A stretch of 64,000 bases of DNA from Escherichia phage 4E10: sequence record OQ689735.1. One strand, written 5' to 3'. A program made the translations under genes and the position numbers. The notes under the pieces were generated by a model. The model saw only the letters and a program-made list of their open reading frames with translations. It searched no databases and was not told the DNA's origin. Below are positions 4,144 to 5,164 of this stretch, piece after piece. Within the stretch, counting starts at the first letter, position 1, and the number at the start of each line of letters is the position of its first letter.

Positions 4144-4219
4144 TGGTCGAGGCAGTAGGGATCGAACCTACGACCTAGGACTTAGAAGGTCCTTGCTCTT
4201 CCTTCTGAGCTATGCCCCG
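4144..4219 (-). tRNA. tRNA-Arg (anticodon UCU)
   Basis: manual fold: 7-bp acceptor, D and T arms (GGTTCGATCC), anticodon loop CUUCUAA, CCA encoded. Confidence 0.8.
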
Positions 4220-4223
4220 TAAT

Positions 4224-4299
4224 TGGGGTGACCGATGGGAGTCGAACCCATGACTACGAGAATCACAATCTCGAGTTCTACCAACTGAACTACGGCCAC
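4224..4299 (-). tRNA. tRNA-His (anticodon GUG)
   Basis: manual fold: acceptor GUGGCCG/CGGUCAC, C73, anticodon loop UUGUGAU, T arm GGTTCGACTCC, CCA encoded; no encoded G-1. Confidence 0.7.
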
Positions 4300-4412
4300 A
4301 TTAATACCTACTCCAACAATCAAGATGTCTTCACACGAAATTAAGAGAAGAGTGATCAGTTCAACCCTATAATCGCGTCAAGTAGATATTAATGTGACAG
4401 TTGTCACAAATT

Positions 4413-4487
4413 TGGCGGACGTGATAGGATTCGAACCTATAACCAATCGCTTAACAGGCGATCGCTCTGCCATTGAGCTACACATCC
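4413..4487 (-). tRNA. tRNA-Asn (anticodon GUU)
   Basis: manual fold: anticodon stem ATCGC/GCGAT, loop CUGUUAA, T arm ATAGGTTCGAATCCTAT, CCA encoded. Confidence 0.8.
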
Positions 4488-4491
4488 AAAT

Positions 4492-4578
4492 TGGTGGGGA
4501 GTGATGGAGTCGAACCACCCGAGTCGCAATGACAATGAATTTACAGTCCACACCGCTACCTCTACGGGATAACTCCCC
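4492..4578 (-). tRNA. tRNA-Tyr (anticodon GUA), long variable arm
   Basis: manual fold: acceptor GGGGAGU/ACUCCCC, anticodon loop CUGUAAA, variable arm GUCAUUGCGAC, CCA encoded. Confidence 0.7.
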
Positions 4579-4591
4579 TTAATTCTTAATT

Positions 4592-4666
4592 TGGTGGCCC
4601 TGGGTGGAATTGAACCACCATCTGGCGATTATGAGTCGCTTGCTTGAACCTTCCAGCTACAGGGCC
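4592..4666 (-). tRNA. tRNA with CAU anticodon (Met, or lysidine-modified Ile as recalled for the T4 CAU tRNA)
   Basis: manual fold: acceptor GGCCCUG/CAGGGCC, anticodon loop CUCAUAA, T arm GGTGGTTCAATTCCACC, CCA encoded. Confidence 0.75.
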
Positions 4667-4667
4667 T

Positions 4668-4743
4668 TGGTGCTGATTGACGGAATCGAACCGCCGACCT
4701 TCTCATTACAAGTGAGTTGCTCTACCTACTGAGCTAAATCAGC
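4668..4743 (-). tRNA. tRNA-Thr (anticodon UGU)
   Basis: manual fold: acceptor GCUGAUU/AAUCAGC, anticodon loop CUUGUAA, CCA encoded. Confidence 0.8.
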
Positions 4744-4748
4744 AAAAC

Positions 4749-4838
4749 TGGCGGAGGCGATAGGATTTGAACCTATGAGTCGCCGGAGCGACTGCCGGTT
4801 TTCAAGACCGGTGCATTAAACCACTCTGCCACGCCTCC
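4749..4838 (-). tRNA. tRNA-Ser (anticodon UGA), long variable arm
   Basis: manual fold: anticodon stem CCGGU/ACCGG, loop CUUGAAA; 2 nt from tRNA-Pro, consistent with a dimeric precursor. Confidence 0.8.
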
Positions 4839-4840
4839 AG

Positions 4841-4914
4841 TCTCCATACAAGGATTTGAACCTTGGACCTCCTGATCCCAAATCAGGCGCTCTACCAAAC
4901 TGAGCTACACGGAG
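4841..4914 (-). tRNA. tRNA-Pro (anticodon UGG), CCA not encoded
   Basis: manual fold: anticodon stem CCUGA/UCAGG, loop UUUGGGA; 3' trailer is not CCA. Confidence 0.75.
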
Positions 4915-4924
4915 TAAATTAAAT

Positions 4925-4998
4925 TGGAGCGGATAATGAGAATCGAACTCACATCATCAGATTGGAAGTCTGAGGTAATACCATTATACGATATCCGC
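4925..4998 (-). tRNA. tRNA-Gly (anticodon UCC)
   Basis: manual fold: acceptor GCGGAUA/UAUCCGC, anticodon loop CUUCCAA, CCA encoded. Confidence 0.8.
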
Positions 4999-5003
4999 AA
5001 ATT

Positions 5004-5090
5004 TGGTGCGAGAAGTGGGACTCGAACCCACAAGGAAATCATTCCGCAGCATTTTAAGTGCTGTGCCTTTACCAATTTGACCATTCTCGC
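5004..5090 (-). tRNA. tRNA-Leu (anticodon UAA), long variable arm
   Basis: manual fold: acceptor GCGAGAA/UUCUCGC, anticodon loop CUUAAAA, CCA encoded. Confidence 0.8.
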
Positions 5091-5091
5091 G

Positions 5092-5164
5092 CTGGGAATA
5101 AAGGACTCGAACCTTTGCATCCTGGAATCAAAATCCAGTGCCTTACCAACTTGGCTAATTCCCA
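5092..5164 (-). tRNA. tRNA-Gln (anticodon UUG), CCA not encoded
   Basis: manual fold: acceptor UGGGAAU/AUUCCCA, anticodon stem CUGGA/UCCAG, loop UUUUGAU. Confidence 0.75.

What the first reader, a model, noticed from the sequence alone, without database searches (positions are those of the whole stretch)
4144..5164. Eleven-tRNA cluster including His, Asn and Tyr
Manual folding gives, in transcription order, Gln(UUG), Leu(UAA), Gly(UCC), Pro(UGG), Ser(UGA), Thr(UGU), CAU (Met or Ile), Tyr(GUA), Asn(GUU), His(GUG) and Arg(UCU). The eight I recall for T4 are all present with the same anticodons, and Tyr, Asn and His appear additional. Pro and Gln lack an encoded CCA, and Pro and Ser are 2 nt apart. 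A perfect palindrome TGTGAC-AGTT-GTCACA (4393-4408) sits just 3' of tRNA-Asn in a 113-bp spacer.
Basis: partly seen in the sequence, partly recalled or inferred. Interest (0 to 1): 0.4.

Follow-up and report, generated by a model that had tools for sequence, protein, structure and literature searches.

The report
Phage eleven-tRNA operon with structured spacer
This is a real but already documented block of eleven transfer-RNA genes in a T4-like phage; the only fresh point is that its 113-base "spacer" folds into a conserved small RNA that always accompanies an unusual histidine tRNA.

Summary
All eleven tRNA genes are real. ARAGORN. The Rfam tRNA model; Tyr is sub-threshold there but is 1 nt from the experimentally expressed T6 tRNA-Tyr.

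The window is a Tequatrovirus, 99% identical to deposited genomes in which the same eleven genes are annotated. About 190-260 phage records share the arrangement. It is the segB-less allele of the T-even tRNA region (as in T2L/RB1/RB3):
- Gln to Thr are 89-100% identical to T4.
- CAU (Ile2-like) and Arg-UCU are non-orthologous replacements.
- Tyr, Asn and His are extra.

So the finding is correct but already known.

The one unexpected item is the 113-bp "spacer". Ninety-three nt of it form a three-way-junction RNA with a 13-bp closing helix. It is conserved with compensatory changes in at least 5 Tevenvirinae genera and one Vequintavirinae phage, and it has no match in Rfam, E. coli genomes or T4. 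It travels as a 189-bp cassette with a tRNA-His that has U, not G, at -1, unlike 108 other viral tRNA-His genes sampled. Function is untested.

The parts
5091..5164 (-). tRNA-Gln(UUG), no encoded CCA
   Evidence: ARAGORN. Rfam 67.4 bits. 89% identical to T4 tRNA-Gln; the differences lie in the anticodon stem-loop.
5004..5090 (-). tRNA-Leu(UAA), class II, CCA encoded
   Evidence: Rfam 59.3 bits. 100% identical to T4.
4925..4998 (-). tRNA-Gly(UCC)
   Evidence: Rfam 65.8 bits. 100% identical to T4.
4840..4914 (-). tRNA-Pro(UGG), no encoded CCA, 2 nt from Ser
   Evidence: Rfam 66.8 bits. 100% identical to T4.
4749..4838 (-). tRNA-Ser(UGA), class II; CCA encoded here but not in T4
   Evidence: Rfam 62.6 bits.
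4668..4743 (-). tRNA-Thr(UGU)
   Evidence: Rfam 72.9 bits. 96% identical to T4.
4592..4666 (-). tRNA with CAU anticodon, most likely tRNA-Ile2 (lysidine-dependent AUA reader); not orthologous to T4/T6 tRNA-Ile
   Evidence: Rfam 59.9 bits. 63.5% identical to T4 Ile. Has C4:G69 and C5:G68, and the stem-loop GCGACTCATAATCGC matches E. coli ileX as recalled from memory. Annotated tRNA-Ile in GenBank hits H42, H43, H45, H50.
4492..4578 (-). tRNA-Tyr(GUA), class II, weak D stem
   Evidence: ARAGORN. Below the Rfam gathering score. 1 nt different from T6 tRNA-Tyr; compensatory anticodon-stem changes in Karamvirus and Klebsiella-phage homologues. The T6 gene is expressed and anti-Septu (PMC13096335).
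4413..4487 (-). tRNA-Asn(GUU)
   Evidence: Rfam 74.1 bits.
4411..4437 (-). 27-bp sequence GGTTCGAATCCTATCACGTCCGCCAAA at the 3' end of tRNA-Asn, fitting the preferred SegB homing-endonuclease site described for T2L tRNA-Asn
   Evidence: Coordinates. It has the GGTTCRANTCC...CCAR consensus and the five distinguishing bases G6, A16, G18, A26, A27 quoted in PMC2330249. Homology with many relatives stops at window 4410.
4393..4408 (-).
   Evidence: Among the genera compared, the 5' arm is found only in Tequatrovirus-type contexts. SEA1 has an analogous hairpin, GTGACG-GATTAT-CGTCAC. The 3' arm GUCACA is also present in Karam-, Gelderland- and Roskildevirus.
4300..4392 (-). 93-nt structured RNA (three-way junction). 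P1 is 4380-4392 with 4301-4313 (13 bp). P2 is ACGCG/CGUGU. P2b is the inner hairpin. P3 is 4315-4329 (4 bp with 7-nt loop UCUUGAU). The last base, 4300, is U-1 of tRNA-His.
   Evidence: RNAfold z = -2.95. RNAalifold finds 7 covarying pairs. Pair counts: 92% and 91% of cells paired against 31-48% when partners are slid; 25 and 42 double-change cells against 7.4 and 11.2 in shuffles, 0/500. Model R1 scores 107.7 bits here, 83-105 bits in the other type-I members and 20-58 bits in Roskildevirus and the type-II variants, and finds nothing in T4, T6 or EC101. No Rfam family matches and no E. coli genome matches.
4224..4299 (-). tRNA-His(GUG) with C73 and CCA but U instead of G at position -1
   Evidence: Rfam 65.1 bits. 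The -1 base is T in every leader-bearing homologue, while 108 other viral tRNA-His genes sampled have G. T-stem and anticodon-stem compensatory changes occur among genera.
4223..4411 (-). 189-bp indel cassette (P0 hairpin + structured RNA + tRNA-His), bounded by CCAA(A)T at the 3' ends of Asn and His
   Evidence: Phage EC101 has Asn, 7 nt, then Arg at the same place.
4144..4219 (-). tRNA-Arg(UCU), non-orthologous to T4 tRNA-Arg
   Evidence: Rfam 66.1 bits. 61.6% identical to T4 Arg.
3777..4127 (-). ORF of 116 aa between tRNA-Arg and rnaD (absent at this place in T4)
   Evidence: phrog_3355, unknown function. No Pfam match.
3663..3777 (-). Homologue of T4 stable RNA rnaD (species 2)
   Evidence: 115 of 119 positions identical to T4 rnaD.
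3518..3656 (-). Homologue of T4 stable RNA rnaC (species 1), followed by the shared terminator hairpin at 3435-3470
   Evidence: 136 of 139 positions identical to T4 rnaC. Terminator hairpin.

Best explanation
The region is the tRNA operon of a T2/RB-type Tequatrovirus. Eleven tRNA genes, one embedded small structured RNA, an ORF and the stable RNAs rnaD and rnaC lie head to tail on the - strand and end at the terminator T4 uses.

Inferred from T4 biology, not tested here: the unit is transcribed as a polycistronic precursor. Host RNase P and 3'-processing enzymes cut it, and the CCA-adding enzyme completes Gln and Pro.

The eight T4-type tRNAs read A-ending codons (CAA, UUA, GGA, CCA, UCA, ACA, AUA, AGA) that the A+T-rich phage uses heavily. 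Tyr and Asn serve amino acids that are over-represented in phage proteins. From published work on the near-identical T6 tRNA-Tyr, they also replenish tRNAs that host defence nucleases destroy.

The part downstream of Thr is the variable, segB-less allele of the T-even tRNA region. tRNA-Asn carries the preferred SegB target at its 3' end. Right after it sits a 189-bp cassette made of a hairpin, a 93-nt three-way-junction RNA and a tRNA-His lacking the encoded G-1.

My reading of the cassette (inferred): the RNA is released by the tRNA-processing cuts as a stable RNA with both ends base-paired. Its 5' flank (GUCACA) can transiently sequester the 5' acceptor strand of tRNA-His in a helix of about 20 bp, so it governs how or when that tRNA matures.
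For: - **Gene calls:**
- **Known arrangement:** 99% identity to Tequatrovirus genomes whose records annotate the same eleven tRNAs. 264 records cover at least 80% of the 1.6-kb region, and 186 cover at least 80% of the CAU-to-His segment.
- **Same neighbourhood as T4:** trna.2-like ORF upstream, rnaD, rnaC and terminator downstream. Gln to Thr are 89-100% identical to T4.
- **Published segB-less alleles:** T2L, RB1 and RB3 carry Met(CAU), Tyr, Asn, Arg and a SegB site in Asn (PMC2330249).
- **Codon use in 57 window ORFs, per 1000:** AUA 14.2, AGA 11.2, UUA 30.7, GGA 24.1, CCA 16.8, UCA 21.0, ACA 20.3, CAA 25.2. Tyr is 4.25% and Asn 5.9% of codons. These are about 1.5-5 times my remembered E. 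coli values.
- **T6 tRNA-Tyr:** 1 nt different. Expressed and protective against Septu.
- **Structured RNA:**. It is strand-specific: many G-U pairs, and 8-18 bits on the opposite strand against 83-108 bits for the sense strand in the type-I members.
- **Cassette nature:**
- **Alternative pairing with the His acceptor strand:**. The first 4-5 nt of the His 5' strand are retained in two variants that lost the rest of tRNA-His (L014, L038).
Against: - No expression, processing or aminoacylation data exist for this phage. Everything about transcripts is inferred.
- Tyr fails the general Rfam threshold.
- His codons are under-represented in the window (1.31% of codons) and the gene lacks G-1, the main HisRS identity element. 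Codon supply therefore does not explain tRNA-His.
- Covariation in P2 and P2b is weaker (76-83% of cells paired).
- The 18 sequences are related, and alignment A8 was fitted to the model.
- The sequestering helix is supported by conservation and thermodynamic prediction only, with just two informative one-sided changes.
Confidence: 0.88

Rival explanations
1. The extra genes (Tyr, Asn, His) are decayed tRNA-like remnants or pseudogenes that ride along in the cluster without function.
For: - Tyr scores below the Rfam gathering threshold and has a mismatched D stem.
- His lacks the encoded G-1.
- His codons are rare in the window.
- Some relatives have lost His (L014, L038) or lack the cassette (EC101).
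Against: - Asn and His score 74 and 65 bits.
- Tyr is 1 nt from an experimentally expressed, protective T6 tRNA.
- Stems of Tyr and His are kept by compensatory changes across genera.
- The arrangement is conserved in hundreds of genomes.
Confidence: 0.04
2. The spacer acts at the DNA level. The palindrome would be a CRP (TGTGA-N6-TCACA) or other protein-binding site, and TTGACG an internal promoter that drives His and Arg; or the hairpin would be a terminator.
For: - Perfect CRP core with 0.05 expected per window.
- TTGACG lies 12 nt downstream of the palindrome.
Against: - The promoter/terminator scan finds nothing on the - strand inside 4300-4412, and no T-run follows the hairpin.
- There is no -10 hexamer, MotA box (TGCTT) or late TATAAATA in the spacer (sequence).
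- The 5' arm of the palindrome is absent in Karam-, Jiaoda-, Gelderland (Melville-type) and Roskildevirus, while the rest of the spacer is conserved.
- TTGACG is TCAACG in Jiaodavirus.
- Conservation follows base-pairing with G-U pairs on the tRNA-sense strand only. The opposite strand scores 8-18 bits.
Confidence: 0.05
3. The spacer is neutral filler left by recombination at the SegB-cut end of tRNA-Asn. Its conservation would reflect only recent horizontal transfer together with tRNA-His.
For: - The cassette is an indel bounded by short repeats at a known endonuclease site.
- tRNA regions of these phages are mosaic.
Against: - Across genera the tRNA-His T stem itself has diverged with compensatory changes, yet the leader keeps P1 and P3 through 6 and 2 covarying pairs.
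- The core was replaced in type-II variants while P1 and P3 were kept.
- The element persists where His was lost (L014, L038) and sits before tRNA-Gln in a Vequintavirinae phage.
Confidence: 0.12
4. tRNA-His (with its leader) is not a translational tRNA but a decoy or bait, for example for a host nuclease or another enzyme that recognises tRNA-His. That would be why it can dispense with G-1.
For: - U at -1 in all leader-bearing genes against G in 108 other viral tRNA-His genes.
- His codons are under-represented.
- Tyr, Asn and His are three of the four GUN-anticodon tRNAs, the target set of colicin E5 (own knowledge).
- There is published precedent for phage tRNAs as anti-defence factors (PMC13096335, PMC11555353, PMC10264068, PMC11464382).
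Against: - No defence system targeting tRNA-His was found in the papers read.
- C73, CCA and a canonical cloverleaf are fully kept, as expected for a chargeable tRNA.
- Nothing here tests charging.
Confidence: 0.2

Closest known systems
Phage T4 tRNA gene cluster (Gln, Leu, Gly, Pro, Ser, Thr, Ile, segB, Arg, rnaD, rnaC; NC_000866 70.9-72.5 kb)
   Same: Same genomic neighbourhood, strand, order and terminator. Gln to Thr are 89-100% identical, and rnaD and rnaC 97-98% identical.
   Different: - No segB.
- The Ile(CAU) and Arg(UCU) genes are different lineages (62-64% identity).
- Tyr, Asn, the structured RNA and His are added.
- Ser has an encoded CCA.
- A 116-aa ORF separates Arg from rnaD.
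segB-less tRNA regions of T2L, RB1 and RB3 (Brok-Volchanskaya et al. 2008, PMC2330249)
   Same: Lacks segB. Has tRNA-Met(CAU), Tyr, Asn and Arg. tRNA-Asn carries the preferred 27-bp SegB site.
   Different: The text of that paper names no tRNA-His or spacer RNA for T2L, which instead has two ORFs. I could not see its Figure 1, so the RB1/RB3 content is not known to me.
Phage T6 tRNA-Tyr, an anti-Septu factor amplified by SegB (Chihara et al. 2026, PMC13096335)
   Same: The tRNA-Tyr gene is identical except for 1 nt.
   Different: T6 has segB right after Tyr and lacks Pro, Ser, Asn, His and the spacer RNA.
T4 stable RNAs species 1 and 2 (rnaC, rnaD)
   Same: Small non-tRNA RNAs encoded inside the tRNA transcription unit and flanked by tRNA-type processing sites. 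Function still unknown.
   Different: No sequence or model similarity: R1 finds nothing in the T4 locus. The spacer RNA lies between two tRNAs and is linked to tRNA-His.
Bacterial tRNA-His genes (E. coli hisR type)
   Same: GUG anticodon, C73, encoded CCA, and acceptor and D arms almost identical to E. coli tRNA-His as I recall it.
   Different: U instead of G at -1, so the G-1:C73 pair that makes RNase P leave the extra 5' G cannot form.
CRP-binding site consensus TGTGA-N6-TCACA
   Same: Perfect match of both half-sites at 4393-4408.
   Different: One half-site is missing in other genera that keep the rest of the element, and there is no associated promoter.

Membership tests
Canonical bacterial-type tRNA genes | Cloverleaf with 7-bp acceptor stem, D, anticodon and T arms, 7-nt anticodon loop | tested here: met
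   ARAGORN structures for all eleven.
Canonical bacterial-type tRNA genes | Score at or above the Rfam RF00005 gathering threshold | tested here: inconclusive
   Ten pass at 59-74 bits. Tyr does not; its best clan hit is tRNA-Sec at 29.9 bits, below 47. tRNAscan-SE calls it Tyr in a 99%-identical record.
Canonical bacterial-type tRNA genes | Stems maintained by compensatory substitutions in homologues | tested here: met
   Tyr anticodon stem GUGGA/UUCAU against GCAGA/UCUGU. His T stem AUGGG/CCCAU against GCGGA/UCCGC and GACGG/CCGUC. Inspected by eye for these two only.
Canonical bacterial-type tRNA genes | Mature, aminoacylated RNA in infected cells | not testable with these tools
   Only indirect evidence: northern blot of the near-identical T6 tRNA-Tyr in PMC13096335.
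T-even phage tRNA region | Location between trna.2/ipI-57B and rnaD-rnaC/e.8, on the same strand, with Gln-Leu-Gly-Pro-Ser-Thr in order | tested here: met
T-even phage tRNA region, T4 allele | segB homing-endonuclease gene between Ile and Arg | tested here: not met
   No segB. Tyr, Asn, the spacer RNA and His occupy the place. This is therefore the segB-less (T2L/RB-type) allele.
SegB homing target (T2L tRNA-Asn type) | 27-bp site GGTTCRANTCC...CCAR with G6, A16, G18, A26, A27 | tested here: met
   Window 4411-4437 against the description in PMC2330249. Cleavage itself is not testable here.
tRNA-Ile2 (CAU anticodon, lysidine-modified) | C4:G69 and C5:G68 in the acceptor stem, tRNA-Ile2-type anticodon stem-loop, not initiator-like | tested here: met
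   The E. coli ileX and metT sequences and the TilS determinants are from my memory. GenBank annotators using tRNAscan-SE label the homologue tRNA-Ile. Modification is not testable.
Bacterial tRNA-His | Genome-encoded G at -1 pairing with C73 | tested here: not met
   T at -1 in the window and in all leader-bearing homologues. C73 is present.
CRP-dependent promoter element | TGTGA-N6-TCACA conserved in relatives and placed upstream of a promoter | tested here: not met
   The core is present. The 5' half is absent outside Tequatrovirus-type contexts, and no promoter was found.
Intrinsic terminator | G+C-rich hairpin followed by a U run | tested here: not met
   The scan finds none in 4300-4412. 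The hairpin is followed by UUAAUAUC.
Any Rfam 15 family (for the 93-nt spacer RNA) | Covariance-model match | tested here: not met
   No hit overlapping the body of 4300-4412 even at E <= 10.
T4 rnaC/rnaD stable RNAs (for the spacer RNA) | Sequence or structure homology to rnaC or rnaD | tested here: not met
   Model R1 finds nothing in the T4 locus. Genuine rnaD and rnaC homologues lie elsewhere, at 3518-3777.
T4 rnaC/rnaD stable RNAs (for the spacer RNA) | Stable processed RNA excised from the tRNA precursor | not testable with these tools
   Needs northern blots or RNA-seq.

The most novel reading that the evidence does not exclude
The 113-bp 'spacer' encodes a previously undescribed phage RNA family: a 93-nt three-way junction closed by a 13-bp helix, here with an extra 5' hairpin. 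It moves as a cassette with a G-1-less tRNA-His through at least five Tevenvirinae genera and is also found in one Vequintavirinae phage, there ahead of tRNA-Gln. Its 5' flank can pair with U-1 and the first five bases of tRNA-His, extending the helix to about 20 bp. The RNA may therefore dictate an unusual 5' maturation or timing for tRNA-His (for example RNase III entry, or delayed RNase P cleavage). Alternatively it may be a stable decoy RNA in its own right.
Probability: 0.5. Interest if true: 0.55.

Novelty: already known. Interest (0 to 1): 0.27.

Why it matters
The cluster itself adds nothing new. It is the common segB-less T2/RB-type tRNA operon, annotated in public genomes and consistent with the codon-supply and anti-defence roles already shown for T-even tRNAs.

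What could matter is inside it. A conserved, covarying, unannotated RNA is strictly linked to a tRNA-His that lacks the near-universal G-1 identity element. If confirmed, this gives tRNA specialists a natural case in which E. coli HisRS and RNase P meet a G-1-less tRNA-His. It also gives phage biologists a third kind of unexplained 'stable RNA' in T-even tRNA operons, next to the 50-year-old puzzle of rnaC and rnaD.

Tried and rejected
- **CRP site, promoter or terminator reading of the palindrome.** Rejected.
- **Spacer as a relative of T4 rnaC or rnaD.** Rejected. R1 finds nothing in the T4 locus, and the true rnaD and rnaC lie at 3518-3777.
- **Host origin of the spacer RNA.**
  - No blastn match in 5,426 complete E. 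coli genomes.
  - The nine pattern hits in bacterial genomes are chance hits that R1 does not recognise.
- **Loop-loop (kissing) contact between P2b and P3.**
  - 7 complementary bases in Gelderland-type sequences (at most 7 of 1000 shuffles reach this).
  - Only 4 in the window type (about 330 of 1000 shuffles reach this).
  - Left as unproven.
- **Pattern scans of IMG/VR.** They added few new members.
- **Metagenome scan.** 41 loci, of which about 17 are real and mostly redundant.
- **Literature searches** for a G-1-less phage tRNA-His or for this RNA found nothing.
- **Pfam and PHROG searches** of the flanking ORFs returned only 'unknown function' families.
- **Small ORFs in the spacer.** Considered and dismissed: a 15-codon + strand ORF and a 3-codon ATG ORF overlap the His start. 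Their sequence is not conserved in the Gelderland-type core.
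Full report
**1. Observation**

ARAGORN finds eleven tRNA genes on the - strand between 4144 and 5164. The Rfam tRNA model independently calls ten of them at 59-74 bits.

The eleventh, Tyr (4492-4578), is missed at the gathering threshold. In a permissive scan its best clan hit is tRNA-Sec at 29.9 bits. The ARAGORN drawing shows why: a D stem with a C:C mismatch and two G-U pairs in the anticodon stem.

The other details also hold:
- Gln and Pro lack an encoded CCA, and the other nine have it.
- Pro and Ser are 2 nt apart, counted from the discriminator.
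- The Asn-His gap is 113 bp.
- TGTGAC-AGTT-GTCACA sits at 4393-4408.
- TGTGA-N6-TCACA occurs once in the 64 kb against 0.05 expected.

**2. What the window is**

The 1.6-kb region is 97-99% identical to many Tequatrovirus genomes, such as Shigella phage ESh26, SH7, slur02 and ZN18. 264 phage records cover at least 80% of it. In ESh26 the same eleven tRNAs are annotated by tRNAscan-SE, including tRNA-Tyr.

Compared with T4:
- The neighbourhood is the same (trna.2-like ORF upstream).
- Leu, Gly, Pro and Ser are 100% identical, Thr 96% and Gln 89%.
- From the CAU gene onward the two phages differ. T4 has Ile, segB, Arg, rnaD, rnaC. The window has a different CAU gene (63.5% identity), Tyr, Asn, the spacer, His, a different Arg-UCU gene (61.6%) and a 116-aa ORF.
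- Only then come rnaD (115/119 identical) and rnaC (136/139), with T4's terminator.

This is the segB-less allele described for T2L, RB1 and RB3. In those phages tRNA-Met(CAU), Tyr, Asn and Arg replace the T4 segment, and SegB cuts preferentially at the 3' end of tRNA-Asn (PMC2330249). The window's Asn 3' end (4411-4437, GGTTCGAATCCTATCACGTCCGCCAAA) has the published consensus and all five bases said to make the T2L site preferred. Homology with many relatives breaks at that point.

**3. The individual extra genes**

*Tyr.* It differs by one base from T6 tRNA-Tyr. T6 tRNA-Tyr was detected by northern blot, rescues T6 from Septu when over-expressed, and is amplified by SegB in escape mutants (PMC13096335). 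Karamvirus and Klebsiella-phage homologues keep the anticodon stem through compensatory changes.

*CAU.* It has G1:C72, C4:G69, C5:G68 and the stem-loop GCGACUCAUAAUCGC, like E. coli tRNA-Ile2 and unlike elongator Met. Those E. coli sequences and the TilS determinants are from my memory. Several GenBank records label the homologue tRNA-Ile. I read it as an AUA decoder.

*His.* It is a clean cloverleaf with C73 and CCA (65 bits). The base before G1 is T, not the G that bacterial tRNA-His genes encode.

**4. Codon use**

In 57 non-overlapping ORFs of the window (18,388 codons), the codons read by the eight T4-type tRNAs are frequent. Per 1000 they are AUA 14.2, AGA 11.2, UUA 30.7, GGA 24.1, CCA 16.8, UCA 21.0, ACA 20.3 and CAA 25.2. 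That is roughly 1.6-5 times the E. coli values I remember.

Tyr (4.25%) and Asn (5.9%) are about 1.5-fold above E. coli. His (1.31%) is below it. Supply and demand therefore fits ten of the eleven tRNAs but not His.

**5. The spacer is a conserved structured RNA**

A blastn search with the spacer alone finds it in 355 phage records:
- Tequatrovirus at 94-100% identity.
- Karamvirus at about 87%.
- Jiaodavirus and other Klebsiella phages at about 80%.
- Gelderlandvirus at 76-78%.

In nearly all of these it lies directly upstream of tRNA-His. Roskildevirus (Erwinia) and divergent 'type-II' variants were added through the covariance model. A Vequintavirinae phage (W70) has it before a tRNA-Gln.

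The structure:
- RNAfold gives a 13-bp closing helix P1 (4380-4392 with 4301-4313), an inner two-part arm (P2, P2b) and a hairpin P3 with a 7-nt loop UC(A/U)UGAU. The z-score is -2.95.
- RNAalifold on 12 distinct sequences keeps this fold, with 7 covarying pairs.
- On that alignment 92.2% of cells pair, against 32-45% when partners are slid. There are 25 double-change cells against 7.4 +/- 2.5 in shuffles (0/500).
- With 18 sequences the figures are 90.6%, 12 covarying pairs and 42 cells against 11.2 +/- 3.0 (0/500). P1 is 98.7% paired with 6 of 13 pairs covarying. One P3 pair shows five pair types. That alignment is model-fitted, so the counts lean towards the structure.
- Many pairs are G-U, and the opposite strand scores only 8-18 bits. 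The constraint is therefore on the tRNA-sense RNA, not on the DNA.

No Rfam family matches. No complete E. coli genome matches. T4, T6 and EC101 lack the element. The nine pattern hits in bacterial genomes are chance. None of the GenBank records inspected annotates it.

**6. It is a cassette**

Phage EC101 has the same ten other tRNAs, with Asn followed after 7 nt by Arg. The window's extra 189 bp (4223-4411: hairpin, RNA, tRNA-His) is bounded by CCAA(A)T at the 3' ends of Asn and His. That is the CCAR motif after which SegB cuts.

In other genera the RNA-His pair sits behind tRNA-Gln. In Jiaodavirus, P1 starts 2 nt after the CCA of Gln.

**7. The palindrome and an alternative pairing**

The 5' arm of the palindrome (UGUGAC) is seen in the Tequatrovirus-type contexts. 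SEA1 has an analogous hairpin, GTGACG-GATTAT-CGTCAC. The 3' arm, GUCACA, is conserved in Karam-, Gelderland- and Roskildevirus without an upstream partner.

The repeat finder shows that the inverted repeat runs on beyond P1 (I1, 24 nt). GUCACA is complementary to U-1 plus G1-C5 of tRNA-His. When leader and tRNA are folded together, the minimum-energy structure in both the window and a Karamvirus is a 19-21-bp helix that swallows the 5' acceptor strand of tRNA-His.

In the other flank type (AGCCAAA, the 3' end of the upstream tRNA-Gln) 5 of 6 pairs are possible. The two natural variants of the His 5' strand (G4 to A, C5 to U) still pair. Two variants that lost the body of tRNA-His keep its first 4-5 bases.

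In the window the upstream arm UGUGAC mimics U-1 GUGGC and would compete for GUCACA. All of this is inference from sequence and thermodynamics.

**8. U-1 goes with a structured leader**

T at -1 occurs in:
- the leader-bearing family;
- two contigs of about 220 kb that have a different, also hairpin-rich, leader of about 80 nt;
- two doubtful cases.

I found no paper on this.

**9. Mechanism and rivals**

The operon reading (polycistronic precursor, host processing, codon supply plus back-up against tRNA-cleaving defences) rests on the T4, T2L and T6 literature and on the data above. I give it about 0.88.

For the cassette I favour a processed, end-paired stable RNA that also controls folding or maturation of tRNA-His. 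I hold it as a functional RNA at about 0.7, with the mechanism much less certain.

The rivals are set out in the Rival explanations section:
- pseudogenes;
- a DNA-level CRP site, promoter or terminator;
- neutral recombination scar;
- tRNA-His as a non-translational decoy.

The last is not excluded. Tyr, Asn and His are three of the four GUN-anticodon tRNAs (own knowledge: the colicin E5 target set).

**10. Novelty**

The finding as written, an eleven-tRNA cluster with Tyr, Asn and His beyond T4's eight, is correct and already known. It is annotated in near-identical genomes, and its type is described in PMC2330249. The spacer RNA and the G-1-less tRNA-His appear undescribed in the sources I could search. 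At most they are a new member of the known kind 'small stable RNAs inside T-even tRNA operons'.

Noticed in passing
window 4300-4392 (- strand): The 'spacer' holds a 93-nt three-way-junction RNA. It is conserved with compensatory changes upstream of tRNA-His in at least 5 Tevenvirinae genera and before tRNA-Gln in a Vequintavirinae phage. It matches no Rfam family and is unannotated in the GenBank records seen.
   Followed up: yes
window 4300 (base -1 of tRNA-His, 4224-4299): tRNA-His has U instead of the encoded G-1, with C73 and CCA intact. The same holds in every homologue that has the leader, whereas 108 other viral tRNA-His genes sampled have G-1.
   Followed up: partly
window 4289-4312 with 4381-4404: A 24-nt inverted repeat extends helix P1 into the tRNA-His 5' acceptor strand (GUCACA pairs with U-1 GUGGC). 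The predicted minimum-energy fold of leader plus tRNA sequesters the acceptor strand in a helix of about 20 bp. The palindrome's 5' arm mimics the tRNA-His 5' end.
   Followed up: partly
window 4411-4437: The 3' end of tRNA-Asn matches the published preferred SegB homing-endonuclease site (consensus plus G6, A16, G18, A26, A27). Homology with many relatives breaks right after it.
   Followed up: partly
window 3518-3777 (- strand): Homologues of T4 stable RNAs rnaD and rnaC (97-98% identical) lie downstream of a 116-aa ORF (3777-4127, phrog_3355, unknown function) that T4 lacks at this place. The CCA just after the annotated 3' end of T4 rnaD reads CCG here.
   Followed up: partly
window 2876-2911 and 3435-3470: A 36-bp direct repeat (the rnaC terminator hairpin) brackets a 559-bp insert absent from T4. 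The insert holds a late-promoter-like TATAAATA and a 157-aa ORF (2916-3389, phrog_2280, unknown function). It looks like a gene cassette inserted with duplication of the terminator.
   Followed up: no
window 5091-5164: tRNA-Gln differs from T4 tRNA-Gln only in the anticodon stem (compensatory changes) and at two anticodon-loop positions flanking UUG (window loop UUUUGAU, T4 loop CUUUGAC).
   Followed up: no
L038 1999-2015 (metagenome contig UMIC01010870.1): Same hairpin stem as the window's palindrome, but the loop is AGTT instead of AACT, its reverse complement. This suggests inversion across the inverted repeat. In this contig the body of tRNA-His is deleted while the spacer RNA is kept.
   Followed up: no
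L073 and L081 (IMG/VR contigs of 221 and 225 kb): Another phage lineage has tRNA-His with T at -1, preceded by a different leader of about 80 nt with two conserved hairpins (CCAGAYGC.../UGUAACUCGUUACA). Model R1 does not recognise it.
   Followed up: partly
window, all ORFs of at least 100 codons: His codons make up only 1.31% of codons (Tyr 4.25%, Asn 5.9%). The phage therefore carries a tRNA-His although it uses His less than E. coli does.
   Followed up: partly
L003 1431-2045 (Enterobacter phage fGh-Ecl04): In this Karamvirus a GIY-YIG Seg-like homing-endonuclease gene sits immediately downstream of the leader and tRNA-His pair. This is another link between tRNA 3' ends and Seg elements.
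   Followed up: no
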